Origin: Chloroflexota bacterium
GTDB taxonomy: Bacteria; Chloroflexota; Dehalococcoidia; UBA2979
Reading direction: 5' to 3'
NCBI GenBank assembly: GCA_027593235.1
Contig: JAQCIU010000018.1
Span: forward strand, 1-64,000
DNA: 64,000 nucleotides
Under the pieces are notes generated by a model, which was not told the DNA's origin, did not search any database, and was given only the letters and a program-made list of their open reading frames with translations. Position numbers and translations under genes: made by a program. Position 1 is the stretch's first letter, and the number at the start of each line of letters is the position of its first letter. This document shows positions 1,868 to 22,359 of the stretch, piece by piece.

Positions 1868-1897
1868 GGACGTACTCCTGGTCACGTTGAGAATCAT

Positions 1898-4353: not shown

Positions 4354-4538
4354 TCTTGCCACCTCTGTAGACCACCTATTGCGTCAGGTATACTGCCACC
4401 GGACCCCGGACTCTACGCACCGACGGGGGGTCCTGTCGAGGCATCTGGGTTGCAACTGACGCAATAACCGCCATACTGAGGCAGGTCCAGTAAAAAATGC
4501 TTGTACCGTGAGTATTTTGCGGGCGTAGTGCGTTTCAG

Positions 4539-5648: not shown

Positions 5649-6469
5649 GGCGAGGCGCCCCACAGGCCTTGTCTGGCACGAACATGCCATAGTGTGCGCC
5701 GGCGCCTGTCATAATGATCGTGTTCAGCGGGCCAGTACCCGTGTGGCGTTAGCTAGGCCGATAGCCGATGCCCGAGGCAGTCAGTCAGTCACGCCGCGTG
5801 GACACGGTCATCGACCCGATTGAGGCGAGCTTCAGAGCACTCGGCCGCTCCGTCTCAGCCGGTGTCGTCGCTGGGCTGTTGGTCGGCGGTCTCGGCGACG
5901 GGCACCGCCCGTCGCACCATGTCGATGAGGTAGGTCGGCAGGGTTGCAGTCATCGACGCTCACGTTCTTCCAAAGATCTTTGGCTAGAGCTGGATGTGCA
6001 GCCCTCGTGGACGGTGCGGGGGCAGGCCGCCGGTCCCCACGCGCTGATGCTGCGCGAGGATCATTTCGACGACAAGGTGCCCCGAGGGGCGCGAATTGAC
6101 ACGGGCCCGCGAGGCTGTCGTGGATCCTCCCGACGCCGTCATCAATGAAGCGGAGCTGGTCAGTATGCGGGTCACCGTTTCCCTGGCAGGCGGTGAATCG
6201 AGCCGTCACGGGGATTTGGAATCATCACTCTCCTTAAGGGAGCGAACGGAAATCCGAATTCGACCTGGCGATCGGCTCTCCTACTGGCTGGCCTGGTTCT
6301 AGACGGCCCCGCGGGTCGGGTCTACGCCGGGACCCTTTCGATGGTGGGAGATGATCGGGTGGCGGAGCGGATGCAGCTACTGTCCAGCCTGCGCCCGCCA
6401 GGTCCACGAGGTGATGGGCCTGCAACGTGCTGGTCGCCGCACCTCGCTCGAACCGGTCGGCAAGCGCCG

Positions 6470-6661
6470 TCACGGGCGAGATCGGGTGCTGCGGTACGCG
6501 AGCAGGATTCCTAGCGCGACGGTCGCGATTCCGATGACAAGCCACCGGCGGTCGTCAGTCATGGCGCTGCCACCAAGCAAGCCAGCACCCTGCAGCGACC
6601 ACACCGTCCCGACCACGATGAGGAGCGCTCCCCCGACAAGTAGCAGGCGTGACTTGCTCAT
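6470..6661 (-). CDS. Small two-TM membrane protein
   Basis: Two hydrophobic stretches around WSLQGAGLLGGSAM; directly follows 6664..6846. Confidence 0.7.
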   Translation of the reverse strand: MSKSRLLLVGGALLIVVGTVWSLQGAGLLGGSAMTDDRRWLVIGIATVALGILLAYRSTRSRP

Positions 6662-6663
6662 GG

Positions 6664-6846
6664 TCAGTTCTTCCGCACCATGCGGTACGCGTTGAGGCCG
6701 ACGTAGACGTCGGTGCCTGCCACCAGTTGGTTGCCGCGGCTGGAAGCGACAATGCGGGTCTTCTTGCTCGACGACAGCCCTTCATCGCCGTTGAGCGGGA
6801 AGCGGACCACCACCTCATCACCTTCGACCGCGATCGATACGGACAT
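6664..6846 (-). CDS. Small conserved-looking hypothetical protein (60 aa)
   Basis: MSVSIAVEGDEVVVRF...SSSKKTRIVASSRGN...VGLNAY; RBS GAAGGT upstream of ATG 6846. Confidence 0.7.
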   Translation of the reverse strand: MSVSIAVEGDEVVVRFPLNGDEGLSSSKKTRIVASSRGNQLVAGTDVYVGLNAYRMVRKN

Positions 6847-7047
6847 GTTCTGCACCTTCCGGATGCTCCGCGACTTGATGAAGTGTCGGTCATGCGGCAG
6901 CCGGGCGGCGAGATGACCCTCAAGGCTCCTTTGCGACGCTAGCGGGAGCAACGGCAGTCCGGTGATCGCCCGGGTGGCGCCAAACAGCGTCGTGGAGTGG
7001 GCGATCCAAGCCGGCGCCCACGTCCTGCCCGGAGTGTCGATTTCTGA

Positions 7048-7081
7048 ATTTCCGTAGCTCCCCTAGGGGGCGAGTGGAAAT
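7048..7081. other. Dyad-symmetric att-like or operator site
   Basis: ATTTCC-N6-CCCC-TA-GGGG-N6-GGAAAT, symmetric about TA 7064-7065, in a non-coding gap. Confidence 0.45.
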
Positions 7082-7499
7082 CGAAATTCGAAGTGACGGT
7101 ATCGCCTCTCCCCGTCGCTGGAGCGGTTTCTAGGCGGTGGAGTGGTCCGGATCTGCGCGGAGTACGAATTACCCCGACGAGCGGCGTACGCCGGGCCGAT
7201 GCCTACACGCCTTTAGGGAAAGAGCAAATTGAATTGGCCAAGATGGCGCGAAGCTCGACCGGTGACCGAACGGGCTCTCCGTAAGTCATCCCCCAAGTCT
7301 ACCTAGCGGTCGACCCGCTCCCATGAGTGAGCCTTGGCCGCTCGGGACCCCGGAGCCTCGCCGCGCGTTGGCTGGCGGAATCGTGCCAGGCTGGCGGGAG
7401 CCTCGATGAGGCCAGGCCGTTTCACCGGCGATCAGCTGGGCGAATATGCCCGGCCAATCGGGAGCAGGGCCGTCGGTTCGCAACTAGCCTCTACTCGAC

Positions 7500-8636
7500 T
7501 CAGCTTGCGGCCTGTATTCGCCCAAGCATCCAGTCGAACACCTCGATCATCCGCCCGAGTTCGTTCGCGTCCCGCAGGTCGGCGAGCGACACACCCTGGT
7601 ATTGGGTCTCGGGGGGCAGGCTGACGACCGTCAGCGCGTTGAGACGTTGCCTGAGCTCTTCTCGAGCGTCGCCGCCTTGGAACGGCGCTGGCAGGCGACG
7701 GAAGTCGACGCGGACCCGGCAATTGCCGGCCCACTCGTCGAGGCCAACGATCGGATCACTGCCCAGAGTGAGGCTCACGCCGGCCATGCGATTTCCGCGC
7801 CCTCCACTGACTGCGAGGCCGTGGGCAGCGCCCCAATCCAGGACCACCACCGTGTCATCCGCGTCCGCAGACCCGAGTTCCTCGAGGCGGTTGAGGAACG
7901 ACTCACGATCCCAAGGTTGGTCTCGCCGAGGAACGGCAGCCGACCGGGGCCGCTGTCGCTCGCTGACGCCAATCACCCGGGGAACGAGAGTTTGGATGTC
8001 ACCGCCGGCGAACTGTTGGATCTGGACGGCGAGGACCTCGGCACGCTCCATCTGCTGATTCAGGAACTCCACGATCCTGCGGAGTTCCGCCGGAACTCGG
8101 TCCGCGACGAAGAGCAATCTCACGCGACCGATCTCGAGGTTCACCCGGGCCGTCTCCCAGAACTCAGCCGGGGCGAAGCCGTTCTCGAGGAAGTCGAGCA
8201 GGTCGGCATCAGGATCCCGCCCTTGGGACTCGCGCCCCCGCCGGAACTCGGCCTCCAGTCTCTCGCCGGGCCAATACGCCAGCGCATTAGCCGCGTAGTC
8301 GAGCATCTGTCCGACAATCTCGCGCCGAATGCGTGTGTCGGTGCTCCGCTTCACCTCGACGAAGGTCGGTATCGCGTCCTGGTCGAGGAACAGGTTGTCG
8401 AGCGACCACCTGTCGCCCGACCCATCGGAGTCGGGGACACCGACCTCACGAGCGACGAGCAGCCATCTGCGCGGCGAACTCGGGTCGATCTGGTCGCCTG
8501 CGAGCAGTCGTGGGTGTTCAGCCAAGAGTTCTTGGAACGTCGCCTCGGCGTCGAACGGCGTTTCCTCGAGCTCCTGCAGGCGCCCGTCGGCCCCGATATT
8601 GAAGATGACTCCGCCACTCATCGTGCCCTCCGTCAT
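7500..8636 (-). CDS. PD-(D/E)XK restriction-endonuclease-like (NucS/DUF91-like) protein
   Basis: E...Q..L; SLDNLFLD...FVEVKR...IVGQMLDYAAN motif set. Confidence 0.75.
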   Translation of the reverse strand: MTEGTMSGGVIFNIGADGRLQELEETPFDAEATFQELLAEHPRLLAGDQIDPSSPRRWLLVAREVGVPDSDGSGDRWSLDNLFLDQDAIPTFVEVKRSTDTRIRREIVGQMLDYAANALAYWPGERLEAEFRRGRESQGRDPDADLLDFLENGFAPAEFWETARVNLEIGRVRLLFVADRVPAELRRIVEFLNQQMERAEVLAVQIQQFAGGDIQTLVPRVIGVSERQRPRSAAVPRRDQPWDRESFLNRLEELGSADADDTVVVLDWGAAHGLAVSGGRGNRMAGVSLTLGSDPIVGLDEWAGNCRVRVDFRRLPAPFQGGDAREELRQRLNALTVVSLPPETQYQGVSLADLRDANELGRMIEVFDWMLGRIQAAS

Positions 8637-8800
8637 TCAGGTACCCGGATGCTCGCACGACCGGCCCCGATACGCTCGCCGCATCGGGAACCGCGTGTCC
8701 AGGAGCAGCAACGCCGGACGGCTTCGTTCAATTCGCACCCCGCACCTAAGAGTGCGATCGCTTTCCGCCTCGCACGGCTATGTTCGCTCCCGGAGGAGAC

Positions 8801-9904
8801 ATGCGAGTTCGTATCAGTGCGGCCGTTGTCGTCGCCCTGGCTCTGTGCCTGACCCTCGCGCAGCCCGCGTCGGCTGACGACGGTCTGTTCGCGGCAGGTC
8901 TCTCGGGAGACCTACCAGATTCGGGCGTCGCGCTGCTGCTCTGGGATGGCGGCACTGTCATCGATCTAGGGAGCACCGAGCCCCGGGTCGCTTCGCTTTG
9001 GGTCTCCGAAGCCGGTTCCCTAGTCGGCTACCTGGTCGGGGCACCCGGCTTCGTCAACGCGGCCTTCCTTGCCGGATACCCCGGAGGGCAGGTACCCGGC
9101 CGCACACCTGTTTTAGTCACCGTCCGCGCGTCGGGCGGTCCAACCGCGCCTCCGTTGAATGGGAACCTCGCGGCGGTGGTTAGCGTCACCGACGGAGACA
9201 CACTGAACGCCCGTATCGGTGGTGTCGTCGAAGCGGTGCGCTTGATTGGCATCAACACGCCCGAGCAGGGCGAGTGTTTCGCCGCCGAGGCCACCGCGCG
9301 CCTGAGCCTGCTCGTTGCGGGAGGCGAGGTTCGCCTCGATCGCGACGGGTCAGACCGCGACCAGTTCGGTCGGCTGCTGCGGTATGTCTACGTCGGCGAC
9401 ACCCTCGTGAACGACGTCATGGTGCGCGAGGGCTACGCACTCGCCGTGCGGTACGAGCCGGATACGGCGATGGCCGCCCAGCTCGCATCGGCGCAGGCCG
9501 CAGCGGCGGCCGCCGGTCGCGGCCTCTGGGCATCAAACGCCTGTGGCAGTGCGGCGGCGGGAAGCATCGAAGTGGCCTTCATCCACTACGACGCGGCGGG
9601 TGACGACAACCAGAACAAGAACGATGAGTGGGTCGACCTTCAGAACACCGGTGGTGCGACACTCGACCTGACTGGGTGGAGCGTCAAGGACGAGTCTGCG
9701 TCCCACCGCTACTATTTCCCGGCGGGCTTCACGTTGGCGCCGAACGCGACGGTTCGCCTCTACACAGGCTGCGGGGCAGACAGTGCTGCGGCGCTGTATT
9801 GGTGCTTCGGTCAGTCCGCGATCTGGAACAACGGCGGCGACACCGTCTTCGTCATCGACCCGGCGGGAAATGTTTCCGTGTCCCAGACCTACGCCGGGAA
9901 CTGA
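8801..9904 (+). CDS. Secreted thermonuclease (SNase) with lamin-tail domain
   Basis: Signal peptide; VTDGDT, VRLIGINTPE, DQFGRLLRYV; LTD motifs NDEWVDL, DLTGW, WNNGGDT; RBS GGAGGAG. Confidence 0.9.
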   Translation: MRVRISAAVVVALALCLTLAQPASADDGLFAAGLSGDLPDSGVALLLWDGGTVIDLGSTEPRVASLWVSEAGSLVGYLVGAPGFVNAAFLAGYPGGQVPGRTPVLVTVRASGGPTAPPLNGNLAAVVSVTDGDTLNARIGGVVEAVRLIGINTPEQGECFAAEATARLSLLVAGGEVRLDRDGSDRDQFGRLLRYVYVGDTLVNDVMVREGYALAVRYEPDTAMAAQLASAQAAAAAAGRGLWASNACGSAAAGSIEVAFIHYDAAGDDNQNKNDEWVDLQNTGGATLDLTGWSVKDESASHRYYFPAGFTLAPNATVRLYTGCGADSAAALYWCFGQSAIWNNGGDTVFVIDPAGNVSVSQTYAGN

Positions 9905-9906
9905 CG

Positions 9907-10629
9907 ATGTATCTCTTCTACGCCGACGAGTCCGGGAGGAGCGACGGTAATAACGGCTACTTCGTGGTCGCGATGGTGGCGGTTCCCGTTGAGAATTGGC
10001 GGAACCTACAGAAGCAGACCGTCGCCGCTGCTGGGCCGATCCTCGCGAGTTCGGGCGACGCCAAACTGCACGCCACAGCTCTAAGAGCACTCGGGTTCCG
10101 CGAGTTGGAGGGAACCCCGCTTCCGCCAGATTACCTGGGCTACTCCAGCGTCCCCGGTTGGTTGCTTCAGTGGACGATCGACGGGTTGATGCAGGTCCTA
10201 TCGGCTGATCGAGTGATGATCCTCGCGAAGGCCTTCGACGCTGCCTCGCTCAAGTCCCGCTACGAAAGGCGTGCGCTGTCCCCCTATGTGGTCGGATAGG
10301 CGTTTGCTCGACAGGAGGCATCGGGTCAGCTCGAGGGTCTTGGCGACCTTGGTGCCTTTGTTTTCGAGCACCACCCCCTGTATTCGAGCCAGACCGAGAA
10401 GCTGATTCTCTGGGAATCGATACTTGCGGGACGTTCAGGGCGCGAGGAGTTTCCGGATCGGCTAATCGAAGGGCCCCTCTTCGCGCCGCCGGATGCCTTC
10501 CCAATGCTGTCGCTGGCGGACTTTGTGGCCAACGCGTATCTGTCCGAGGTGCGAGGCGGCGATCAGCTTGGCTGGTGGGCGCGGATTCTCGCTGAGTGCG
10601 ATGTTCGGAGGCCTGAAGTTTGGCCCTAG
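9907..10629 (+). pseudogene. DUF3800-family protein with an in-frame TAG at 10297-10299
   Basis: N-terminal YLFYADESG; the same frame continues after TAG to IEGPLF...MLSLADFVANA...WP*. Confidence 0.75.
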
Positions 10630-10646
10630 TTCACCCGCGCACGGAA

Positions 10647-10667
10647 ACGCCGCCAGGGCGGCGGCGT
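10647..10667 (-). terminator. Hairpin, probable terminator downstream of the tRNA-like 3' end
   Basis: acgccgcc-5nt-ggcggcgt, ending in a short TTT run on the minus strand. Confidence 0.5.
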
Positions 10668-10679
10668 GTTCAGCGGGTT

Positions 10680-10696
10680 ATGGCGACCCCGAGCGG
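10680..10696 (+). repeat. Left attachment-site core of element B
   Basis: atggcgaccccgagcgg, identical to 21485-21501. Confidence 0.85.
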
Positions 10697-10969
10697 ATTC
10701 GGAGTCGTCTGACACAAACGGCTGGCGAGACTTCGTTTATCCGGATTGAGGGCGTTCGGCAACTGCCGCAACTCCGCAACCGTGGCCTCTCGACCTCTTT
10801 CAATGCGATTGGTGTGCGGAGGCCCTGCAACCCGCGAATAGCGAGTGATTTGGGCTGTCCTGCGGTTTCTGGGGCGAAAGGCGCTCGAGGACATAGAAAG
10901 CCTGCATCTCGTTTTTCGAGAGAGGGTGTCCCACGCCAGTGAATGATTCTGAACCGGCGATCCCCACCC

Positions 10970-11112
10970 CCTATGAAGAGCGCGAGAGAGGGTGTCCAGA
11001 CGCCCACGAACAGGCCTTCGTCCTTCTGGTCAGCGACGAATCACAACCCCACCGAGAACACGAAAGATGGGAAGGCTGCGATCAGGATCGCGCCGATGAA
11101 GCGGTCTTCCGG
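10970..11112 (-). pseudogene. Remnant of a small membrane protein
   Basis: RFIGAILIAAFPSFVFSVGL*FVADQKDEGLFVGVWTPSLALF with an in-frame TGA at 11041-11043; no start codon. Confidence 0.4.
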
Positions 11113-11298
11113 TCAGGGCGCAATAGCCCCCGGTCGACCACGCGATCGCCGATCGGCCTCGCGGATGCAACCGGGCACCTGGTCGCTCTGGCACGCGACT
11201 TTCTGATGACCCACGTCGCACTCCGCGAGGAAAGCCTCGCGGAGCACGGCGCCTCTGCCGCGGACGAGTCGTAGCACCCTCGTCCGCCAGCGAGTCCT

Positions 11299-12663
<1,365 letters not shown>

Positions 12664-12840
12664 CTCTGACCTCCGAACTAGCGCTGCACGGAGCCGGTTG
12701 CTCAACATCTGCAGCGGGTATGAGGACAGCTTGACACATGTTTGCATCATTTTCTACATCCTGTGACTAACTTTTGACCACCCCGCTCTGAGGCGACCAA
12801 CAGCAGCGCTCAGCGACACCGAGCCAGACCGGATCAGGCG

Positions 12841-13173
12841 CTATCCGCGGCGTTCGTTCAGACGCTCATCCAGAAACGCCAGGGCGCGTTGCGGTGACCA
12901 CGGCCGAGGCGTGTCGCGCTGCCAGTAGCCCCAATGACCACCTGACGAGGGGTGCTCGAACTGCACCGCGTGCCCCAGCGGCGTGCGATACGGGGCGAAC
13001 GAATCTAGGCGGACGATCGGGTCGTCCGTAGCGGAGAGCACCAGCGAAGGCACCGTGAGCGCACCGAGCTTCGGGCCGGAGCTGGCAGCCTCGTAGTAGG
13101 TGTCGACATCGGGGTGGCCGGCATCCGGCACCGTGAACAGCTCGTCGAACCGGCGCACGCTGCGGAGCTGCAA
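12841..13173 (-). pseudogene. C-terminal fragment of a YheT-like alpha/beta hydrolase
   Basis: FDELFT...YYEAASS...ATDDPIV...GGHWG; the nucleophile-containing N-terminal half is absent. Confidence 0.7.
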
Positions 13174-13271
13174 CCAGCGCGCGGGCGGACCGCCTGGGTC
13201 AGACCTCTCGGTGTCGAAGACCTTCTTCGAGGTGGACTTCGGAGCTTAGGAGTTGCGCTGTTCCTCTGATC

Positions 13272-13790
13272 GTGGCCGCCCCGGGGGTTGTGAACTGGTA
13301 TCAGCGTCACCTGCTCGCTGGCATCAACTACGCCCGGGGGATGGAGTACTCACTCAGCGTCTCGATCATGCTGGTGCTGATCGCGATGCTGACTGGAATC
13401 ATCAACCTCTACGCACTGATCGGTCTCTTCGTTGTAAACGAGACGATGATTGGGTTGGGACGCTCATGGACCGGGTCAACCAGCACCGGGAGCAGGTCAT
13501 CTGGGCGCCCGTTCGTGCTCGGTTTCCTCGCGGGCGCGCTGCCTTGGATCACGATCGCCATCGCAGCCGCGGCGAACGAGGGCGACGGGGTGCCCGGCTT
13601 CGTCTACGGCATCTTCGTGTCGCTCTTCCAGCTCTTCAACTGCTTCGCGATCAATCAGCTCTTGCAGCATCGACACCGCGGCCGATTCGCGGACTACCTC
13701 TAAGGCGAGAAGGTCTACGTCGTGCTCAGTCTGGTCGCCAAGAGCGCGCTGGCGTGGCAGGTCTTCGGAGGCACGCTGGCCGACTCAGCC
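13272..13790 (+). pseudogene. Heliorhodopsin pseudogene (5' truncated, two compensating frameshifts, TAA)
   Basis: INYARGMEYSLS (RWxEYS-like), VPGFVYGIFVSLF..FNCFAINQ; after TAA 13701 GEKVYVVLSLVAKSALAWQVFGG carries the retinal-binding Lys; LMDRVNQ...IWAP lies in a shifted frame. Confidence 0.88.
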
Positions 13791-13933
13791 TTCTATTCTA
13801 GTGGTCTTAGAGCGATGCTCGTGACAGGCGTTCGCTGAGGGACCGCGGCGCCGGCGGCGCCGACGAGGCCCAGGCAACCGCCCGATAGACTCGGACGAGA
13901 AAACGCGAGAAGAGCTCAGGGCGGCTTCGACCA

Positions 13934-15406
13934 ATGACGAAGATCCTCGTTCTCGGTGCGAGTGGGTATATCGGCTCCCATCTGGTGCCCAGGCTGATCT
14001 CAGCTGGACACCAGGTACGAGCCGCGTCCCGGCACCCTGAGGTCCTGGAAGCGCGAGGGTGGCAGGGAGCAGAGGTCGTCGGCGCGGACGCGATGTCCAG
14101 AGAGTCGCTCGAAGTCGCTCTCGTCGGGATCGAAGTCGCCTACTATCTGGTGCACTCGATGGCCAGCGGGAGCGACTACGCTGAGCGCGACCGCCGAGCC
14201 GCTGCAGCCTTTCGCGACGCAGCGGCGAGAGCGGGCGTCCGTCGGATCATCTTCCTTGGCGGTCTTCAGCCGAAGGAGGGGGCGTCGGAGCATCTGCGAT
14301 CTCGGGCGGAGACCGGTGAGGTGCTTCGGACCGGAATCGTCCCCGTCACGGAGTTGCGGGCTGGCATCATCGTCGGCCCCGGATCCGCCGCCTTCGAGGT
14401 GATCCGCGACCTGGTCAACCACCTGCGAGTGATGGTGACGCCACGCTGGGTCCGGTCGCGCACACAGCCGATCGCCCTCGAAGACCTGCTGGCCTACCTC
14501 GAGGGGGTGCTCAGCGTCCCCGAAACCGCCGGCCAGACCTTTGATGTCGGCGGCCCGGAGACGCTGAGCTACCAGGACTTGATGACTGAGTACGCTCATG
14601 AGATGGGGCGCAGGATCCTCGTGATCCCGGTCCCGGTACTCTCACCCCGCCTCTCGTCCTACTGGCTCGACCTTGTCACCGCGGTGCCGGCAAGCGTCGC
14701 GCGCCCGCTGATCGAGGGTCTAAAGCTCGATCTGCTGGCGGACGACCGCGCGATTCGCGCGTTGCTTCCGATCCGACTGCATATGTACCGGGAGGCGGTG
14801 CGGCTGGCGGTGGATGCCGAGCAGCGGGCGAGCCTGAGCGGTCGATGGGCCGACGCAGCGCTTCCCTTTCCCGGCTTCGATGATTCAGCGTCGTACTTCA
14901 GCAAGCATGAGCGCACCGACGCGGTGGCACTCGTGCCCATCGCGGACCTGTGGACCGAGCTCGCCAAGATCGGCGGCGACAACGGGTGGTACGCCTACCC
15001 GTTCCTCTGGTGGCTGCGCGGAGTCCTCGACCGCTTGCTGGGAGGCCCGGGCACGCGACGTCGACGACGGCATGCAGCAGAGCTGCGGGTCGGCGACGCG
15101 GTCGATTTCTGGCGGGTCGTGCAGCTCGAGCCCGAGCGGCGACTCATCTTGCTCGCTGAGATGAAGATGCCGGGCAAGGCGGTTCTCGAGTTCCGCACCG
15201 AGCGACTCGACGACTCGCGGTCAAGGCTCGTCACCGAGGCGCGTTTCCATCCAGCGGGAACGATCGGACTGCTCTACTGGTATGCACTGGTTCCACTGCA
15301 CCCGAGGATCTTCTCAGGGCTCACATCGGCGATCGTGCACCGGGCCGAAGAGCGGGCCAGAGTTGCGTCGAGTGTCGGAGACCTCCGCTTGCCGTCCGAG
15401 GCTTAG
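13934..15406 (+). CDS. SDR/NAD(P)-binding oxidoreductase with DUF2867 (YbjT-like)
   Basis: GASGYIG Rossmann motif, YYLVHSM, C-terminal IGGDNGWY...DFWRV...AEMKMPG. Confidence 0.92.
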   Translation: MTKILVLGASGYIGSHLVPRLISAGHQVRAASRHPEVLEARGWQGAEVVGADAMSRESLEVALVGIEVAYYLVHSMASGSDYAERDRRAAAAFRDAAARAGVRRIIFLGGLQPKEGASEHLRSRAETGEVLRTGIVPVTELRAGIIVGPGSAAFEVIRDLVNHLRVMVTPRWVRSRTQPIALEDLLAYLEGVLSVPETAGQTFDVGGPETLSYQDLMTEYAHEMGRRILVIPVPVLSPRLSSYWLDLVTAVPASVARPLIEGLKLDLLADDRAIRALLPIRLHMYREAVRLAVDAEQRASLSGRWADAALPFPGFDDSASYFSKHERTDAVALVPIADLWTELAKIGGDNGWYAYPFLWWLRGVLDRLLGGPGTRRRRRHAAELRVGDAVDFWRVVQLEPERRLILLAEMKMPGKAVLEFRTERLDDSRSRLVTEARFHPAGTIGLLYWYALVPLHPRIFSGLTSAIVHRAEERARVASSVGDLRLPSEA

Positions 15407-15562
15407 TTCGACCCCTTCTGCAAGTCTCATCCCGCGGGAGCGCGTCGCTACCGCAACACCGGTGCTCTCCGGTGATGTGCGGAATCGCGGCGACTCTCCG
15501 AGCGGGGCGGCAAGCGACCGGCGATAGCCTCCTCACGAAGTCAATTCTCGGAGGAGGAGACC

Positions 15563-16036
15563 ATGTTCCGCTTCGGTATTGGGGCATTCGTATTCGCGAG
15601 TGGACTGCTGGCAACGGTGGCCTGCGGCGGCGCCGGTGACGATGGTGCCGCGAACGGCACAACGACACTCGAAGCCCCAGCTGCCACCGGTCAATCCGCG
15701 CCCGACGAGGTCGAGGTCGATTTCGTGCTGTCGGACTTCGCGATCGATGGTCCGGAGTCGGTGAGCGCCGGCCTCGTGCGATTCAATGTGGCGAACGAAG
15801 GCGCCGCCATCCACGAGCTCGTGATCGTACGGACGGACGCCGAGCCGGCCGCACTGCCCATTGAGGGTGGGGTCGTCGCCGAGACCGAGCTCGATGTGGT
15901 CGGAGAGATCGAGGAGTTCCCAGGCGGAGAAACGCGCTCGGCGACCTTCGAACTCAGCGCCGGTCGGTATCTCCTGATCTGCAACGTGCCGGGTCATTTT
16001 CTCCTCGGCATGGTGACCGAGTTCAGCGTCACCTGA
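15563..16036 (+). CDS. Cupredoxin (blue-copper) lipoprotein
   Basis: Lipobox-like TVAC; type-1 Cu ligands HELV and CNVPGH...GM. Confidence 0.88.
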   Translation: MFRFGIGAFVFASGLLATVACGGAGDDGAANGTTTLEAPAATGQSAPDEVEVDFVLSDFAIDGPESVSAGLVRFNVANEGAAIHELVIVRTDAEPAALPIEGGVVAETELDVVGEIEEFPGGETRSATFELSAGRYLLICNVPGHFLLGMVTEFSVT

Positions 16037-16161
16037 GGTAGCGCGACTGATGGTTGGGGGCGGGCGACCGTGGGCCGGCGTCCGTCCCCCCTTACCCTCC
16101 GAGCGTCTGCGGTGGGACAGAGAGGATGGGACAGTGCAGGCGTCCAGTTCCATCGTGTTGT

Positions 16162-16734
16162 TCAATCGCGATCTTCGACGTCACCGCCACCCATCAGCTC
16201 CTGGACGAGGAAGGGCTGCTTCGAGCCGTCGGCGGTGGTGTGTTCGCCGATGTCGTAGATCGCGACGATGTTCTGGTGGCTCAGTCGGCCCATCGCCTGC
16301 GCCTCGCGCATGATCCGCTCGCGGCCGACCTCGTCGAGGCCATCGGTCTTGATCAAGGAAAAGGCGACGTCGCGGTCGAGCAGGGCGTCGTGGGCGAGGA
16401 AGACACGCTTCTTGCCACCCTCGCCGAGGAAGCGTTGGACGTGGTATCGACCGCCGGCGAAGGATTCAGGCTCACTTGGGCTGGGCGCCGGGGTGTTCTC
16501 CGCCTCGGAGGATTCAGCGGGTAGGCCAGCCGAGGGTGGTTGCGTGTTGCCTGAGACCTCGGCGAGGGCCGGTCTCGCCATGTTCACGAACGCGTTCGCG
16601 TCCTCGTTCGCTTGATCGAAGCCGAGCACCGCGCTGGCTGTCTCGATGACAGCCTGCCAGTCACGCGTTGATGCAGCTGCCTCGGCTTGGTCGAGCAAGG
16701 CCTCGATCTGTCGCTGAACACGTTCGCTTGGCAT
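16162..16734 (-). pseudogene. Truncated Ser/Thr protein kinase (N-lobe only)
   Basis: LGEGGKKRVFLAHD, REAQAMGRLSHQNIV; stops just after ELMGGGDVE, with no HRD or DFG. Confidence 0.8.
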
Positions 16735-16869
16735 GGCAGGCGTGATGATACCGGGGGTGAGGCCCCGCAATGCGAGAAACAAGGGGTCCGGCTGGCAGAC
16801 CGGCGCGGTCACCGTGACATCCAATCTTCCGGAGTGGCCTAAGCCGATTCAATATCGGCCTTCCGGGTT

Positions 16870-17739
16870 CTAGACAGCTGCCTTCCCCACGAACTCCTTC
16901 AGTCGCGCTCGCCGGGCGCGTTGAGCATCCCGAATGGGGATCTTCGCAGTGCGGCACTCGAGGCAATAGTTTCGCCTTCCGACCGAGGGGCGTCGCGCCG
17001 GCGCGTATGCGCGGCCGCAGGACGAGCAGATCGCGAATGATCCCGCACCCGCAATCGACTGGAGCAGGCTGAGACCGATTCGTCCGAAGACGCCGGGGCT
17101 CCTCATCTGAATCAGTGGTCCAGCGTCGCCCCACGACAGCCGTGGTCGAGCGTGCCCGAGCGCTAGCCATCGCCCGACCACCGTCGCGACCGCCTCGCGC
17201 TGTTCTCTTGGCGCGGCAGACGCGAACTCAGAGAGTCCCAGCCATTCCCAGTGCTGCGCGCTCGTTGCTCCCCCCATCGTGAGGTCGGACGTGATCCTGA
17301 GCAGCGCCTCGGCACGCCTCGAATAGATCATCCACCGAGCAAGCGGTTCGAACGCGTACCGGTGACCGCCTTTCGTCCGAGACCCAAGCGGCGGGCAGCC
17401 TTGAAAGCCTCGCTTCCTCGTTGAGGTACGAACCGCGGTGTGCTGCCGAGGAGTTCCGTGCTCACAGAGCTCGAGAACTCCGTGCTTGAGGGCGAATTCC
17501 GGGATCGCCTCGAGCGTGCTCTGCGAATGAAGCCCTGCGAACGTCTCGAGGAGCCCGGGACCGACTGTCGCTAGCGGGCCATCGCTGTCAATCGGATACC
17601 GGTAGTGGAGATCTTCGCCGTCGATGGACGCGTCGTCCGGTGCCGGCACTGGATCTGGATTGAGTGGCTCCGGGAGGAACCCGCTCTCAGGACCCGCGAT
17701 CCCCGAGAGCTGCATTGCGAGGACGATATCGTTGGTCAT
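16870..17739 (-). CDS. Protein with C-terminal CGNR-like Zn finger (putative element regulator B)
   Basis: CSSCGRAY...NYCLECR plus basic tail; divergent from primase B. Confidence 0.72.
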   Translation of the reverse strand: MTNDIVLAMQLSGIAGPESGFLPEPLNPDPVPAPDDASIDGEDLHYRYPIDSDGPLATVGPGLLETFAGLHSQSTLEAIPEFALKHGVLELCEHGTPRQHTAVRTSTRKRGFQGCPPLGSRTKGGHRYAFEPLARWMIYSRRAEALLRITSDLTMGGATSAQHWEWLGLSEFASAAPREQREAVATVVGRWLALGHARPRLSWGDAGPLIQMRSPGVFGRIGLSLLQSIAGAGSFAICSSCGRAYAPARRPSVGRRNYCLECRTAKIPIRDAQRARRARLKEFVGKAAV

Positions 17740-17862
17740 ATTGAAATCATACTGTAATTCAAAACGGGATACCAGAAAGCGAGATGCTTGGGGTGATCGC
17801 CGCCGAGATGCGGGGCGACGGTCCAAGCACGAGCCGCATCAAAACGAAAGGATCAACAAACT

Positions 17863-19917
17863 ATGTTGGTCAGAATTGACCCCTTCGGGGACCGTGATGG
17901 GATGCGGATCGGCTCGGCAGGCGCACAGCCAGCAGATGCGGGCGCCAGCGATCGGAGTGAGGGAGCGACAGATGCCGGAGGTGGAGCAGGGGCGCTACCT
18001 GCCTCCGTCCCAAACGGCGCACCTGCGATTCGCAGAACCGAGGCACGTAGTCCCCGAGTTGGAGGATGCCCGCTGCGGGAACTGCTCCGCGAATACCGAA
18101 TCAGCGGCGAAGTTGCCAGAAAGGAGCAGCTTGAATCCTCTAAGAAAGGCGGCATCGAGCAGACGAAGATTCCCTACTTCGACGAGTATGGCTGTCGCCT
18201 GGGTGACCGGGTCCTGATCGACCTGAGTGAGCCCTCGCAAGGGCGCTGGACGGGCCAGTCACCGAACGTTCTCTACGGTCTCTCCCGATCTCGTGATGCG
18301 ATCCAAGCTGGTGTCGTGTTTCTGTTCGAGAGTGAAGCTGGGTGCTTGCGGTTCTGGTCGGAGGGATTCCCTGCGCTCGCGGTTCCGGGATCCGGTGCGT
18401 GGGAGATTGCGAGGAATTCCCCGGTTCTCGATGACGTTCAGATGATCTATGTCGTTGGTGACAGCGAAACCCTTGCGTCGGCAGCCGATTCGCTGGAAGG
18501 GGCGAGCTTCTTGGATCGTCTCGGCTTCCTGGTGCTCTCTGAGGAGGCGGATCTTCTCGGGCCAGAGATCACGGGGGTCGAGTTTCAGCAGCTGCTGGGC
18601 AACTGCATGGAGCGAGCCGTCAGCTGGAATGACTATCAGGAGAGTCGGTCCTCGGAGATCCGTGCGACTACCTCGAGTGAGTGCGAGGACCTGCTGCAGT
18701 CAACGTCAATCCTCGACGAATTCGTCGCGGACCTCTGGCAGTGTGGCGTTGTAGGAGAGGAGCGTGGTGGGAAGCTTCTCTACCTAGCCTTGGTCAGTCG
18801 ATTGACAGACCGGCCGGTCTCAGTCGTCGTGAAGGCAGCTTCTTCGTCCGGGAAGTCGTTCCTGGCGAAGAAGGTGCTCACATTCTTTCCTGAGGATGCC
18901 TTCCAGTGGCTCAGCGGAATGTCGGAACGGGCTCTCGCGTACTCCAAGGAACCCCTTCGCCACCGGTTCCTTGTGATCGCCGAGGCTGATGGGGCTCAAG
19001 GCGATTTTCAGGACTACTTGCTCCGTACGCTTCTTTCCGAAGGGAGGATTAGATACGAGACCGTCATGGATACGGGGAATGGTCTTGAGACGGTGATCAT
19101 CGAGCGGGAGGGGCCAACGGGGCTGCTCCTCACGACGACCAGAATCACACTGCACCCCGAGAATGAGACGAGGCTCTTTTCCCTGCCCGTAGACGAGTCG
19201 ATCGAGCAGACGCGGGACGTCGTTCGCGAGCTCGTGAGGGAGGATCGTCCTGAGGTCGACCTGTCCCGTTGGCATGCTTTACAGCATTGGCTGGGGGCTG
19301 GCTCGACCGCGGTGAGTGTGCCGTTCGGTCCCGCTCTTGCGGAAATGGTGGATGTGCGGGCGCTCCGAGTTCGCCGCGACTTCTCCGCGGTCATCAGTCT
19401 GATTCGCTCCAACGCCTTGCTGCATCAACAGCACCGCGAGGTGACCGCTGATGGGCAGGTCGTGGCCGACCTCGACGACTATGCGGTGGTCTACGAACTG
19501 GTGGCGGATCTCATGGCCGAAGGCATCGGAGCGACCGTCCCGCCCGGCGTTCGGCGTGTGGTGGACGCCGTGGATGAGCTCACGTCGGGGCCGCAGCATT
19601 ACGGGGATGACCCCGTTGCCGTGAGTAACAACGAGCTCAGTGAGCACCTGCAGTTGGACAAGTCCACCATCTCGCGACGAGTGGCTGAAGCGCTCCGCAG
19701 CGGATACTTGCACGACCTTGTCGATCGACGGCGGCGAGAGAAGCAGCTCGTCATCCACGATCCGATGCCTGGCGACACGTCGGTGCTCCCATCACCTGAG
19801 GAGTTGGGAGTTGCATGGTTGCAGTCGGTTGCACCCACCCGCCCGCGCCGGGTCGGTCCTAGGCGGCCAGCAGCGGCCGCGCCGGCAGCCGCTCCGATCG
19901 GCGACTACGTTGATTGA
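17863..19917 (+). CDS. Primase-related P-loop ATPase with C-terminal HTH (element B replication protein); start uncertain
   Basis: Degenerate TOPRIM-like segment, LLYLALVSR, ASSSGKS Walker A, HPENETR, HTH LSEHLQLDKSTISRRV. Confidence 0.75.
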   Translation: MLVRIDPFGDRDGMRIGSAGAQPADAGASDRSEGATDAGGGAGALPASVPNGAPAIRRTEARSPRVGGCPLRELLREYRISGEVARKEQLESSKKGGIEQTKIPYFDEYGCRLGDRVLIDLSEPSQGRWTGQSPNVLYGLSRSRDAIQAGVVFLFESEAGCLRFWSEGFPALAVPGSGAWEIARNSPVLDDVQMIYVVGDSETLASAADSLEGASFLDRLGFLVLSEEADLLGPEITGVEFQQLLGNCMERAVSWNDYQESRSSEIRATTSSECEDLLQSTSILDEFVADLWQCGVVGEERGGKLLYLALVSRLTDRPVSVVVKAASSSGKSFLAKKVLTFFPEDAFQWLSGMSERALAYSKEPLRHRFLVIAEADGAQGDFQDYLLRTLLSEGRIRYETVMDTGNGLETVIIEREGPTGLLLTTTRITLHPENETRLFSLPVDESIEQTRDVVRELVREDRPEVDLSRWHALQHWLGAGSTAVSVPFGPALAEMVDVRALRVRRDFSAVISLIRSNALLHQQHREVTADGQVVADLDDYAVVYELVADLMAEGIGATVPPGVRRVVDAVDELTSGPQHYGDDPVAVSNNELSEHLQLDKSTISRRVAEALRSGYLHDLVDRRRREKQLVIHDPMPGDTSVLPSPEELGVAWLQSVAPTRPRRVGPRRPAAAAPAAAPIGDYVD

Positions 19918-20266
19918 GAAGAAGGGGCCGGGCGAAGTCCCCCCTGAGGTCGAGAGGGTCTGCGTGCTTCTAGCAGCAGTCGTCAGACGGCTCAGTGGGG
20001 CGATTGTTGTCGAGGCAGAGGAGCAGTCGGATGAGAGTCGCGATCTACCTGAGGGTGTCGTCGGAAGAGCAGACGAAAGGGCACTCGCTGGACACCCAGC
20101 GGGACGCTCTGACGGAGTGGGCAAGCCGCGAAGGCTGGGACGTCGTCGAGACATTCGAGGACGCGGGGATCAGCGCCACGAACGCCACGAAGCGTCCGGC
20201 GTTCATGAGGATGATCCAGGCTGCGAAGGAGGGTCAATTCGAGATGGTCCTCGTGAAGCGTCGTGA
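19910..20266 (+). CDS. Small ORF between primase and LSR-B, overlapping both
   Basis: TTG 19910 overlaps the primase 3' end; IEKKGPGEVPPEVERVCVLLAAVVRRL; positional counterpart of 967..1113. Confidence 0.35.
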   Translation: MIEKKGPGEVPPEVERVCVLLAAVVRRLSGAIVVEAEEQSDESRDLPEGVVGRADERALAGHPAGRSDGVGKPRRLGRRRDIRGRGDQRHERHEASGVHEDDPGCEGGSIRDGPREAS

Positions 20267-22310
20267 TCGCTTCGCGAGGAACCTGGCCGACGCGGGTGCC
20301 TACGAGCAGCTCCTCGGAGAGTGCGGCGTCCGCGTTTGGTCGCATGACGAGTCGGCAACCAACGAAGACACCCCTGCGGGCTTCTTGATGAAGGGGATGC
20401 TAGACGTCTTCGCGGCCCACTACTCAGTGGAATTGTCGAAGAAGACGGCGGATGGCTGGCGGAAGCGCGCTGAGAAGGGCCTCCCTGTTGGCGACGTCCC
20501 GTTCGGGTATCGCTCCGTGGGCCCCCAAAGCGCCCCTGAGCTGGTGTCGGACGAGGCGGAGGCAGTGTTCGAGGTCTTCAAGCGCTACGCCTCCGGCGAA
20601 GCCAGCATGGTCGACCTGGCTCAGTACCTGGATGGCCTCGATTTTCGACCCCGATCGAAGCGCGGTCTGGCTCGGTTCACTAAGGACAACGTCGGAGGGA
20701 TGCTTTCGAACCGCTTCTACGTCGGCGAGGTGGCCTACAAAGACGAATTCGTCAGCGAAGGGCAGCACGAGGCGATCATCGATGAGCAGCTCTGGGCAAG
20801 AGTCACGGAGGCCCGTCACCGCCGCGCCTCCCGACAGGGGCTATCGTCACCCGGGAAGCATCCGTACTTGCTGCGTGGAATCGGGACTTGCTCCGCCTGC
20901 TCAGCAATCCTGTGGGGGAACCGCTCGCGTCACCACCACTACTACCGTTGTGCTGGGCAACGGCGTGGAACCGGCTGCGCGAACGGTTCACGGGGAGTTC
21001 GCGCTGAGGTACTGGAAGAGAAGGTCGCTGCACTGTTCAGGGACGTGAGGATTCCCGACGACTGGCACGCTCTCGTTCGTCGGATGCTCGACGACCAGGG
21101 ATTCGACCGCGACGGCCTTGAGGCGGAACGGGCTCGGATCCAACGTCGCATCGAACGGGTCCGGGAGGCTCTCTTCGAAGGTCTCGTTGACATCGCTACC
21201 GCCCGAAACGAGTTCGGAGCCGCTCGAGTTCGTCTGAAGGAGCTCGAGCAGCTGCTGGCTGCAGACCCCCGGTCGCCAAGCCTCTCAGATGACTTCATCA
21301 ATGTACGGCGGCTTTGGCCTCACATGACGTCCGAGGAGCGTCAGGCTGTTGTCCAGGCGTCGCTCGAAGCGGTTGAAGTCGACCTCGAAGAGCAGAGGGT
21401 CGTCGGGTTCAAGCCTCGGCCCGAAATGGAGCCTCTTTTTGAGGCCCTGGAGGAGGCCGGATCGAACGTGAATAATGTTTGTGCATGGCGACCCCGAGCG
21501 GCGCAAGTCCACCCGATCCCCACGCTACCGGCCGTGCACGCCCAGGCCCTTGGGTTGCTGAGCGACCCGGCAACGTCGATCCCGCAGCTCGGCAAGGTCG
21601 TCGAGACCGATCCGGCACTGACGGTATCCGTCTTGCGGGCCGCGAACTCGGCGGCCTCGGCCCCCGTCTCGGCGATTGGCACGCCAGCCGAGGCGATCGT
21701 GCGGATTGGCCTGAACACCACGCGGAAGATCATCACCGCCGCGGTGGTCAGCGAATCGTTCAACCGGCTCGACTACGCCGGCATCGACTCCGCGGAACTC
21801 TGGCGTCACCTCTTTACGACCGCCCTTGTCGCGGATGCGTCCGCCTGGGGCGCCGAGCAACGCTCGACCGCCTTCACCGCCGGACTGCTCCACCTGATCG
21901 GCCGCATGGCGATGGCGCAGTCCGATCCGCAGCGCTACACGCAGGTCGCTGCAATCGCCCGCACCGGCCGCTCCGTCCTCGACTCCGAAGCCAGCGTCTT
22001 CGGCTACGACAGCCAGTCCTGGGGCGTCGAGGTCGCACGTGCCTGGGACGTGCCGGACGAGATCGTCGAGGCCATTGGTGGCTTCTCCGACGGTTCGCTT
22101 GGCCCGCTCGCCTGGGTTGCCTGGAACGGCCGTCGCGTCGCCGCGGCGCTCGGCATCGGCGACGGCGTGCACGCCGCGGAACAGATGGACATCTACGGCG
22201 AACTGGCTCCCGAGGATGACCAGCTACTCAACGGCCTCGGCGGCGCCGAATCGCTGCTGAAGCAAGCGGATTGGATGCTCGGCTCGGTGACCAAGGCGCG
22301 CGCTGCGTAG
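20031..22310 (+). CDS. Large serine recombinase B fused in frame to an HDOD domain (759 aa)
   Basis: RBS GAGGAG; YLRVSSEEQ, DRFARN, PFGY, CSAC..YYRC Zn ribbon, coiled coil; after WRPRA at the att core, IPTLP...DPALTVSVLRAANS...LWRH...AFTAGLLHLIG. Confidence 0.93.
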   Translation: MRVAIYLRVSSEEQTKGHSLDTQRDALTEWASREGWDVVETFEDAGISATNATKRPAFMRMIQAAKEGQFEMVLVKRRDRFARNLADAGAYEQLLGECGVRVWSHDESATNEDTPAGFLMKGMLDVFAAHYSVELSKKTADGWRKRAEKGLPVGDVPFGYRSVGPQSAPELVSDEAEAVFEVFKRYASGEASMVDLAQYLDGLDFRPRSKRGLARFTKDNVGGMLSNRFYVGEVAYKDEFVSEGQHEAIIDEQLWARVTEARHRRASRQGLSSPGKHPYLLRGIGTCSACSAILWGNRSRHHHYYRCAGQRRGTGCANGSRGVRAEVLEEKVAALFRDVRIPDDWHALVRRMLDDQGFDRDGLEAERARIQRRIERVREALFEGLVDIATARNEFGAARVRLKELEQLLAADPRSPSLSDDFINVRRLWPHMTSEERQAVVQASLEAVEVDLEEQRVVGFKPRPEMEPLFEALEEAGSNVNNVCAWRPRAAQVHPIPTLPAVHAQALGLLSDPATSIPQLGKVVETDPALTVSVLRAANSAASAPVSAIGTPAEAIVRIGLNTTRKIITAAVVSESFNRLDYAGIDSAELWRHLFTTALVADASAWGAEQRSTAFTAGLLHLIGRMAMAQSDPQRYTQVAAIARTGRSVLDSEASVFGYDSQSWGVEVARAWDVPDEIVEAIGGFSDGSLGPLAWVAWNGRRVAAALGIGDGVHAAEQMDIYGELAPEDDQLLNGLGGAESLLKQADWMLGSVTKARAA
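21485..21501 (+). repeat. Right attachment-site core of element B (inside the LSR ORF)
   Basis: Exact 17-bp copy of 10680-10696 at the recombinase/HDOD junction. Confidence 0.85.
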
Positions 22311-22335: not shown

Positions 22336-22359
22336 CGGGCGCGTCGAAAGACGCGCCCG
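22336..22359 (+). terminator. Intrinsic terminator hairpin
   Basis: cgggcgcgtc-gaaa-gacgcgcccg between convergent genes. Confidence 0.75.

What the first reader, a model, noticed from the sequence alone, without database searches (positions are those of the whole stretch)
20031..22310. Integration-switched C-terminus: serine recombinase fused to an HDOD domain through its own att site
Seen: the LSR ORF has no stop at its end and passes through the att core (VCA-WRPRA) in frame into a complete-looking HDOD domain. That domain has no start codon of its own, so the fusion is about 490 + 269 aa. Seen: joining the right end to the left end (a 10,805-bp circle) gives WRPRA-DSESSDTNGWRDFVYPD* (stop 10747-10749), a normal-sized 507-aa LSR. 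Seen: the empty site has an in-frame GTG at 10666 that could yield a 279-aa stand-alone HDOD (MFSGLWRPRAAQVHPIPTLP), though that GTG sits in a hairpin arm. Known precedents: attP-in-gene C-terminal switching in some mycobacteriophage repressors, and excision-restored genes (Bacillus skin/sigK, SPbeta/spsM). Inference: this is either a recombinase whose domain content depends on integration state, or an accidental fusion that leaves HDOD expression dependent on the element.
Basis: partly seen in the sequence, partly recalled or inferred. Interest (0 to 1): 0.85.

Follow-up and report, generated by a model that had tools for sequence, protein, structure and literature searches.

The report
Accidental recombinase–HDOD read-through fusion
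A mobile element's recombinase gene has no stop codon of its own, and because the element landed on the start codon of a signalling (HDOD) gene the two now read as one long protein, most likely by accident.

Summary
The fused ORF is real. ORF 19995-22310 (771 aa; 759 aa from ATG 20031) carries Resolvase, Recombinase, Zn-ribbon and a complete HDOD domain. Contigs from two different studies bridge the junction without a mismatch.

The reading as an integration-switched or excision-restored gene is not supported.
- Same-genus relatives start HDOD with ATG (M-AQVHPIPTLP, 270 aa). The window has GCG at that codon.
- The DNA left of the left repeat is unrelated accessory DNA, not the HDOD 5' side.

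The recombinase belongs to a clade whose ORF always runs across its own att site. That site mimics the 3' end of tRNA-Asp(GTC). Of the 6 relatives found at E<=1e-70 in 400 other class-level genomes, 5 stop inside an intact tRNA-Asp read antisense. This stop-outside-the-island layout was described for Dehalococcoides ssrA islands (PMC3146451).

Here the crossover (GG 21500-21501) fell on HDOD codons 1-2, in frame (1 in 3 a priori).

No other recombinase-HDOD fusion stood among the best 150 hits from 1.84 billion representative proteins.

Verdict: an off-target insertion by a new, tRNA-Asp-type member of a known island family. Modest interest.

The parts
20031..21500 (+). Large serine recombinase proper (490 codons, up to ..VCAWRPRA). 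It has no stop codon inside the element.
   Evidence: Pfam Resolvase, Recombinase and Zn_ribbon_recom. Homologues of 486-507 aa at 39-55% identity. Homologues begin M[KR]VA[IL]Y, which fits ATG 20031 as the start.
19995..22310 (+). The whole fused open frame: 771 aa from GTG 19995, 759 aa from ATG 20031, stop at 22308-22310.
   Evidence: The stop-to-stop open frame is 778 aa.
21485..21501 (+). Right copy of the 17-bp repeat (attR core). It encodes ..(A)WRPRA. The inferred 2-bp crossover is GG at 21500-21501.
   Evidence: Similarity to relatives begins at 21488-21500. Contigs of runs X4 and X5 match only from 21500 onwards. The dyad centre is shown.
21498..21500 (+). GCG codon at the place where the native HDOD gene has its ATG start.
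   Evidence: Comparison by eye of the G001, G003 and G023 loci with the window.
21501..22310 (+). HDOD coding part: 269 codons plus stop, intact, 91% identical in protein to same-genus orthologues.
   Evidence: G001 and G003 91%, G023 80%, residues 1-269 aligned without stops; stand-alone proteins of 270 aa.
22336..22359 (+). Terminator-like hairpin just behind the HDOD stop.
   Evidence: This is a consensus scan only.
10680..10696 (+). Left copy of the 17-bp repeat. Positions 10681-10701 match the last 21 nt of the genome's own tRNA-Asp(GTC), read antisense, at 20 of 21.
10697..10749 (+). Left end of the element (P' arm). In the circular form it would supply the last 17 codons and the stop of a 507-aa recombinase.
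   Evidence: frame-1 translation; its reverse complement matches the P arm at 16 of 26 positions, including a perfect 7-bp outer block.
10697..20030 (.). Cargo of the 10.8-kb element:
- sigma-70-type factor, 11299-12750 (-)
- NmrA/DUF2867 protein, 13934-15406 (+)
- protein-kinase N-terminal fragment, 16162-16824 (-)
- two ORFs without a family, 16870-17826 (-) and 17863-19917 (+)
   Evidence: Pfam and PHROGs (no hit for the last two). The cargo genes have only scattered matches of 66-84% nucleotide identity in relatives and in G000 itself, and no synteny.
1..10679 (.). Unrelated accessory DNA to the left. It holds a second serine recombinase cut by the contig end (23-958, -), a primase/polymerase-like gene (1898-4375, -) and an SNase+LTD nuclease (8780-9904, +). 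It is not the HDOD upstream region.

Best explanation
Window 10697-21501 is a 10.8-kb integrative island. It is moved by a large serine recombinase of a Chloroflexi clade built like the DsiB recombinases of Dehalococcoides ssrA islands.

In this clade the recombinase gene sits at the very edge of the element and has no stop codon inside it. Its last conserved codons (W-R-P-R) are the antisense of the CCA end and acceptor stem of tRNA-Asp(GTC). Its attP therefore overlaps its own 3' end.

Normally the element inserts into tRNA-Asp and the ORF stops inside the tRNA gene, read antisense (tail WRPRxDSNRRSPP). Here the recombinase-side arm is joined, at the central GG (21500-21501), to codons 1-2 of a stand-alone HDOD gene. 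This removed the HDOD gene's ATG, ribosome-binding site and promoter side.

Because the ORF always runs on until the first outside stop, and the frame happened to match (1 chance in 3), it now reads through all 269 HDOD codons.

Shown:
- the fusion itself;
- the native HDOD start in relatives;
- the clade's tRNA-Asp habit;
- the crossover position.

Inferred:
- the joining was an off-target recombinase event;
- the fusion has no designed function;
- HDOD is now made only as a recombinase tail, or from an untested internal start.
For: Fusion and repeat.

Native HDOD:
- G001, G003 and G023 start with ATG-GCx-CAA-GTC (M-A-Q-V..) behind a GGAG.
- Database orthologues are 270 aa and carry PF08668 only.
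- Synteny with relatives starts at 21488-21500 and continues rightwards for more than 10 kb.

Clade behaviour:
- 11 of the 13 homologues fetched carry WRPR near the C-terminus, and 7 of 13 continue with [D/E]SN (13 fetched out of 123 found).
- The antisense of G000's own tRNA-Asp reads W-R-P-R-S-D-S-N-R-R-S-P-P-stop (sequence, read by eye).
- In G014 the recombinase (47% identical) ends in GWRPRTDSNRRSPP inside an intact tRNA-Asp, and a 28-bp repeat of the tRNA 3' end lies 11.5 kb away.
- In a sample of 400 class-level genomes plus G000, 6 non-self loci matched at E<=1e-70. Five of the 6 have tRNA-Asp(GTC) antisense at the recombinase 3' end, with the stop inside it.
- A more distant clade does the same with the tmRNA 3' end (7 of 11 loci).

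[quoted passage not shown] att anatomy:
- The attP arms are inverted repeats, 16 of 26 positions, centred on GG.
- The last 8 nt of the HDOD site's left half in G001 match the inverted P' arm at 7 of 8 (both; the 7 of 8 was read by eye from its printout).

Reality of the junction:
- A 14,687-nt contig of run X1 covers 11837-22800 with 0 differences.
- A 654-nt contig of run X3, from another study, covers 21363-22016 with 0 differences.

Uniqueness:
- The best 150 of 80,519 phmmer hits match either residues ~13-503 or ~507-767, never both.
- All 8 hits of 700 aa or more, plus 2 longer homologues, lack HDOD (0 of 10).
Against: - The left junction is not the reciprocal product expected from a simple insertion into the HDOD site. 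It carries the tRNA-type 17-mer next to unrelated DNA instead of the HDOD upstream arm. At least one further event, or another order of events, must be assumed.
- The right half of the HDOD site resembles neither attP nor the tRNA site (5 of 26 positions). 'Off-target' is therefore argued from one half-site and the shared GG only.
- The same junction occurs without a mismatch in a sample taken seven years later in another study. The arrangement is thus stably kept. That is compatible with neutrality, but does not exclude a use.
- The HDOD part is intact.
- No RNA or protein data were available.
Confidence: 0.8

Rival explanations
1. Designed switch. The recombinase gains or loses a functional C-terminal domain with integration state. 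The integrated form is a bifunctional recombinase-HDOD protein, for example one that couples excision to a signalling input. The excised form is a plain 507-aa enzyme.
For: - The frame is kept and the HDOD domain is complete.
- The tail after WRPR does differ between the integrated and circular forms in this clade.
- The junction persists unchanged in a second study.
Against: - It is a single case. None of the 150 best hits from 1.84 billion representatives spans both parts, and 0 of 10 long homologues carry HDOD.
- The clade's regular target is tRNA-Asp (5 of 6 loci).
- Tails after WRPR are not conserved. PMC3146451 makes the same point for DsiB.
- Relatives keep HDOD as a stand-alone 270-aa protein.
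Confidence: 0.06
2. Assembly artefact. The recombinase-HDOD junction is a chimeric join made by the assembler.
For: - The genome is a 78-contig assembly at 89.7% completeness.
- The neighbourhood is full of repeats and contig ends.
- Depth differs between the left flank (17.8) and the element plus HDOD (28.1) in run X1.
Against: - Contigs built separately from single runs bridge the junction with 0 differences: 14,687 nt in X1 and 654 nt in X3, the latter from a different study.
- The repeat is only 17 bp. I judge that too short to mislead an assembler (inference).
- The left junction is also bridged, by an 11,469-nt contig of X1.
Confidence: 0.03
3. The junction did not arise from a single off-target insertion. 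The element first sat in a tRNA-Asp-type site next to the left-flank DNA. A second event then gave the HDOD junction. Candidates are:
- homologous recombination between two copies of the element, one at the tRNA-type site and one at HDOD, deleting what lay between;
- insertion into the hybrid site left by an older tandem island.
The fusion is still accidental.
For: - The left junction is of the canonical kind: tRNA-Asp 3' end at 20 of 21, followed by the element arm.
- It lies next to DNA with no counterpart in 24 relatives.
- The HDOD paralogue that lies upstream in relatives was not found in syntenic position in G000, whose syntenic contig C61 begins with a transposase-like ORF.
- Run X3 holds the HDOD junction but has zero depth over 9800-10667.
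- Tandem islands, some without recombinase genes, are described for the ssrA islands (PMC3146451).
Against: - No second copy of the element, no orphan tRNA-Asp 5' part and no reciprocal junction is present in the G000 assembly.
- In X1 the contigs pass both junctions without a break.
Confidence: 0.3

Closest known systems
DsiB serine recombinases of Dehalococcoides ssrA-specific genomic islands (McMurdie et al. 2011, PMC3146451; passages read)
   Same: - A large serine recombinase sits at the edge of a roughly 10-kb island.
- The ORF overlaps the att repeat at its 3' end, and the stop codon lies only outside the island.
- The target is the 3' end (T-loop region) of a small stable RNA gene, which is duplicated as a short direct repeat.
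- Islands can stand in tandem.
- Relatives of the window's genome carry such tmRNA-end recombinases.
   Different: - The window's clade mimics tRNA-Asp(GTC), not ssrA.
- The recombinase query found no second, small (DsiA-like) recombinase gene inside the element.
- Here the outside DNA is a protein-coding gene read in frame, which that paper does not report in the passages I saw.
Excision-restored genes: skin/sigK and SPbeta/spsM of Bacillus (recalled, not looked up)
   Same: A serine-recombinase element sits inside a host gene.
   Different: In those cases excision rebuilds the host gene. Here the left junction lacks the HDOD 5' end and start codon, so excision would not rebuild the 270-aa native gene.
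Integration-dependent immunity of mycobacteriophages, with attP inside the repressor gene (recalled, not looked up)
   Same: attP lies inside a coding region, so integration changes the C-terminus of the product.
   Different: - Those systems use a tyrosine integrase and a repressor whose two forms have shown, different activities.
- Here the changed protein is the recombinase itself. The tails are unconserved and no functional difference is shown.
Stand-alone HDOD proteins (Pfam PF08668)
   Same: The C-terminal 269 residues are a full HDOD domain, 91% identical to same-genus 270-aa proteins.
   Different: The start codon and upstream region are lost, and the domain is attached to a recombinase.

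Membership tests
Large serine recombinase (serine integrase) | N-terminal resolvase catalytic domain followed by a recombinase domain and a zinc-ribbon domain | tested here: met
   PF00239 (6.9e-34), PF07508 (2.7e-14) and PF13408 (2.2e-06), all above their curated cut-offs. The serine-bearing motif YLRVSSEEQ is present; that this is the nucleophile motif is recalled.
Large serine recombinase (serine integrase) | att sites with imperfect inverted-repeat arms around a 2-bp crossover | tested here: met
   Arms of the reconstructed attP match as inverted repeats at 16 of 26 positions, with a perfect 7-bp outer block, centred on the GG that ends the 17-bp repeat. Recombination itself was not tested.
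DsiB-type islands targeting a stable-RNA 3' end | Recombinase ORF overlaps att at its 3' end, with the stop codon only outside the island | tested here: met
   There is no stop between 20031 and 21501. The stop is at 22308-22310 in the integrated form and at 10747-10749 in the circular form. The same holds in G014 and in 5 of 6 class-level relatives.
DsiB-type islands targeting a stable-RNA 3' end | Short direct repeat of the RNA gene's 3' end at the far boundary | tested here: met
   17-bp repeat. Positions 10681-10701 match tRNA-Asp positions 57-77 at 20 of 21.
DsiB-type islands targeting a stable-RNA 3' end | Integrated next to the intact target RNA gene (ssrA in the published family) | tested here: not met
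   No tRNA or tmRNA at the recombinase end: ARAGORN finds only two tRNA-Ser on the contig, at 42343 and 52724. The neighbour is HDOD.
DsiB-type islands targeting a stable-RNA 3' end | Six-gene integration module including a second small serine recombinase (DsiA) | tested here: not met
   The recombinase query matches only 20031-21482 and 23-958 in the window. Neighbouring ORFs 16870-17826 and 17863-19917 have no Pfam or PHROG family. The other module genes were not searched one by one.
Excision-restored host gene (sigK / spsM type) | The two junctions carry the two halves of one host gene, so excision rebuilds it | tested here: not met
   The left flank is unrelated DNA. The native ATG is replaced, and the ATG inside the 17-mer is out of frame.
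HDOD domain protein | Full-length match to PF08668 | tested here: met
   2.8e-40, profile positions 1-190 of 196.

The most novel reading that the evidence does not exclude
In this recombinase clade the swap of the C-terminal tail at the att site may be a working sensor of integration state. The tail made in the circular form and the tail made in the integrated form would set stability or direction of recombination. The HDOD fusion would then be an extreme natural case, in which the integrated enzyme carries a signalling domain and the host's HDOD function has come under control of the element.
Probability: 0.06. Interest if true: 0.75.

Novelty: new member of a known kind. Interest (0 to 1): 0.3.

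Why it matters
- It shows how an island whose recombinase gene lacks its own stop can create chimeric proteins when it lands in a coding region. This is a natural route to domain fusion and to silencing of a host gene.
- It points to a tRNA-Asp-specific branch of the serine-recombinase islands. Within the papers I searched, only the ssrA-specific type was described.
- For annotation, such long recombinase ORFs should not be read as new domain architectures without checking the att site.
- For recombinase engineering, the pair of a canonical tRNA-Asp site and a natural off-target site with one good half-site may be a useful specificity datum.

Tried and rejected
- Native N-terminus at GTG 10666: rejected. 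Relatives start at the ATG that is GCG in the window.
- Left flank as HDOD upstream: rejected. No synteny. The last left-flank gene has no homologue in 400 class-level genomes, so I could not test whether that flank normally lies beside a tRNA-Asp.
- Remnant of a recombinase gene left of 10680: none seen.
- A second copy of the element, an orphan tRNA-Asp 5' part, or a reciprocal junction in G000: none found.
- The second 'tRNA-Asp' call on contig C61 lies in what looks like coding sequence, and I set it aside as a likely false call.
- Circle junction or a deletion joint from 10697 to 21501 in reads: none was listed among the joints. That table and the loose-end table were cut (232 loose ends not shown), and all runs were contigs, so this says nothing about absence.
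- Parts of the stretch without cover in X3-X5 are likewise no evidence of absence, except that X3's junction contig exists.
- A loose end in X1 joins other DNA to position 10685. A 16-nt motif taken from it is not in the G000 assembly. It remains unexplained.
- Closer copies of the element in public collections: genome contigs and metagenome contigs gave only relatives at 33% identity or less. An exact 29-nt stretch of the P' arm is not in viral contigs.
- Promoter scan of 19700-22500: no sigma-70-type site. This is uninformative for this phylum.
- An in-frame GTG at 21468, eleven bases behind a GGAGG, could give a separate 280-aa HDOD. This was read from the sequence and is untested.
- Supplementary files of PMC3146451 were not opened. 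They may hold alignments of DsiB tails that bear on the tail question.
Full report
**The observation.** Window 19995-22310 is one open frame of 771 codons, or 759 from ATG 20031, where homologues begin. Pfam places Resolvase, Recombinase and the recombinase zinc ribbon in residues 15-347, and a full HDOD domain in residues 508-694. The 17-mer ATGGCGACCCCGAGCGG occurs exactly twice in the window, at 10680-10696 and 21485-21501. None of 100 shuffles gave two matches. Read in the recombinase frame, the DNA behind the left copy gives DSESSDTNGWRDFVYPD and a stop at 10747-10749. A circle closed at the repeat would therefore encode a 507-aa enzyme.

**The native HDOD gene.** Three relatives hold the orthologue: two of the same genus at 91% protein identity and one of the same family at 80%. 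In all three the gene starts ATG-GCx-CAA-GTC.. (M-A-Q-V-H-P-I-P-T-L-P) behind a GGAG. The nearest database proteins are 270 aa and carry HDOD only. In the window the codon at that place (21498-21500) is GCG. Nucleotide similarity to the relatives begins at 21488-21500 and runs on to the right for more than 10 kb. To the left nothing matches:
- In relatives the upstream side is a divergent HDOD paralogue, followed by DNA that in this genome lies on another contig, C61. C61 begins with an ORF that I read by eye as an IS6-type transposase.
- Window 1-10679 has no syntenic counterpart in 24 relatives.

**The recombinase clade.**
- I fetched 13 of the 123 homologues found. Eleven carry W-R-P-R close to the C-terminus, and seven continue with [D/E]SN, typically ..WRPRSDSNRRSPP.
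- That tail is the antisense reading of tRNA-Asp(GTC), from its CCA end to the anticodon loop. The genome's own tRNA-Asp on contig C37 reads exactly W-R-P-R-S-D-S-N-R-R-S-P-P-stop on its opposite strand (read by eye).
- In relative G014 a recombinase 47% identical ends GWRPRTDSNRRSPP inside an intact tRNA-Asp. A 28-bp copy of the tRNA 3' end lies 11.5 kb away, marking an element of the same size class.
- In a sample of 400 genomes of the class plus G000, six non-self loci matched at E<=1e-70. Five of the six have tRNA-Asp(GTC) on the opposite strand at the recombinase 3' end, with the stop codon inside it. The sixth has its own stop and no tRNA.
- More distant recombinases in relatives do the same with the 3' end of tmRNA: 7 of 11 loci share the tmRNA-end motif at their stop, and ARAGORN calls the tmRNA itself in 3 of them.

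This layout is in print. [quoted passage not shown] **Anatomy of the sites.** Taking the GG that ends the repeat as the centre, the element's right-end arm and the reverse complement of its left-end arm agree at 16 of 26 positions, including a perfect 7-bp outer block. This is what a serine-recombinase attP looks like.
- The recombinase-side arm matches the tRNA-Asp site at 13 of the inner 14 positions.
- In the same-genus relatives the HDOD start has the same central GG (the G of ATG and the first G of codon 2).
- In G001 the last 8 nt of its left half match the inverted left-end arm at 7 of 8 (read by eye).
- Its right half matches nothing (5 of 26).

The window's right junction is exactly the recombinase-side arm, the GG, and the HDOD right half. 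Contigs of runs X4 and X5, which carry HDOD at about 99% identity, match the window only from 21500 onwards. I therefore place the crossover at 21500-21501.

**The left junction does not fit a simple story.** A single insertion into the HDOD site should leave the HDOD upstream arm joined to 10697. Instead, 10680-10696 is the tRNA-type 17-mer; positions 10681-10701 match tRNA-Asp at 20 of 21. It is preceded by a hairpin and the end of an unrelated gene. It looks like the ordinary left junction of an insertion into a tRNA-Asp-type site. Three routes are open:
- insertion into a hybrid site left by an older tandem island (tandem islands, some without recombinase genes, are described in PMC3146451);
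- recombination between two copies of the element;
- later arrival of the left-flank DNA.

The assembly holds no second copy, no orphan tRNA half and no reciprocal junction. I leave this open. It does not affect how the fusion itself arose.

**Is the junction real?** Contigs built separately from single public runs were laid on 9800-22800.
- In X1, which may be the source sample, one 14,687-nt contig covers 11837-22800 and one 11,469-nt contig covers 9800-10957, both without a difference. Both junctions are therefore bridged.
- In X3, an estuary sample of another study seven years later, a 654-nt contig covers 21363-22016 without a difference. X3 has no depth at all over 9800-10667.

The recombinase-HDOD junction is thus not an assembly artefact, and it exists apart from the left flank. 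Mean contig depths in X1 differ: 17.8 for the left flank and 28.1 for the element plus HDOD. One X1 contig joins other DNA at 10685. Both hint at more than one left-end arrangement in the population.

**Is the fusion a recurrent architecture?** A phmmer search of the 771-aa protein against 1.84 billion representatives gave 80,519 hits. Among the best 150, every hit aligns either to the recombinase part or to the HDOD part. All eight hits of 700 aa or more, and two longer close homologues, have no HDOD or other foreign Pfam domain (0 of 10). The library holds no closer copy of this recombinase than 66% (over a half-length protein), and the word-index search none closer than 67%. No paper in the searched library combines 'HDOD' with 'serine recombinase', or 'serine recombinase', 'tRNA-Asp' and 'genomic island'.

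**Mechanism and consequences.** The element's recombinase gene always reads on into whatever lies outside. Here that is a gene in the same orientation, entered one codon after its start, in frame (1 chance in 3). One of the other two frames is also open for about 240 codons in this G+C-rich DNA.
- The product would be a 759-aa recombinase with an HDOD tail.
- The catalytic and DNA-binding domains are untouched, and the clade's tails are unconserved, so the enzyme may well still work (inference).
- The host gene has lost its start, its ribosome-binding site and its upstream side.
- HDOD can now be made only as that tail, or from an internal start such as the in-frame GTG at 21468 behind a GGAGG. 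This is untested.
- No promoter-like site was found, and a terminator-like hairpin follows the HDOD stop.
- With the left junction as assembled, excision would not rebuild the native gene.

**Verdict.** The broader point, a recombinase ORF that crosses its own att site and changes its tail on integration, is a known property of DsiB-type islands. What is new is modest:
- a tRNA-Asp-mimicking branch of that family in other Chloroflexi;
- a natural off-target event that produced an in-frame chimera with a host signalling protein.

The genomic contexts of the closest database homologues, and of the near-identical HDOD proteins, could therefore not be read.

Noticed in passing
window 23-958 (-), continuing on contig C31 of the same genome: A second large serine recombinase is cut by the contig end. 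Its continuation on C31 runs antisense through a 3' fragment that matches the 3' end of the genome's tRNA-Ala(GGC) in all 25 positions compared. It appears to follow the same stop-outside rule with another tRNA. C31 shares short end overlaps with several contigs, which suggests an assembly tangle around insertion sequences.
   Followed up: partly
loci L011-L017 (relatives G005, G024, G016, G004, G022, G038, G001): Recombinases 29-35% identical to the window's end inside the antisense of the tmRNA 3' end, with tails such as ..LVETGEN or ..WWRRGR. ARAGORN calls the tmRNA in 3 of these 7 loci. This fits the published ssrA-island type.
   Followed up: partly
window 10917-10997: Two exact 15-nt copies lie 66 bp apart. 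One X3 contig 'goes back 66' between 10987 and 10922, which suggests a variable copy number of a 66-bp tandem unit near the element's left end.
   Followed up: no
window 10685: In run X1 one contig joins unrelated DNA to position 10685, inside the left repeat. A 16-nt motif from that DNA is absent from the G000 assembly. It may be an alternative left junction or another organism's tRNA-like site.
   Followed up: partly
window 11299-12750 (-): A complete sigma-70-type factor (regions 2, 3 and 4) is carried inside the element. Its conserved core (11536-11969) collects very high depth from other organisms in all four runs. The best match in a relative is 75% nucleotide identity (G003).
   Followed up: partly
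window 12841-13173 (-) and 16162-16824 (-): The cargo holds gene fragments. By eye, the first looks like the C-terminal piece of a hydrolase-like ORF. The second is a protein-kinase N-terminal fragment (Pfam Pkinase, profile positions 1-87 of 263). Relatives carry several matches of 74-84% to the kinase stretch.
   Followed up: no
contig C61, positions 1-1218 of the same genome: The contig that carries the DNA syntenic with the relatives' HDOD upstream side begins with an ORF that I read by eye as an IS6-type transposase. The HDOD paralogue that lies between them in relatives was not found in syntenic position in G000.
   Followed up: partly
window 1898-4375 (-) and 8780-9904 (+): The left accessory region encodes a primase/polymerase-like protein (PHROG hits down to 1e-65) and a protein with staphylococcal-nuclease and lamin-tail domains.
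   Followed up: no
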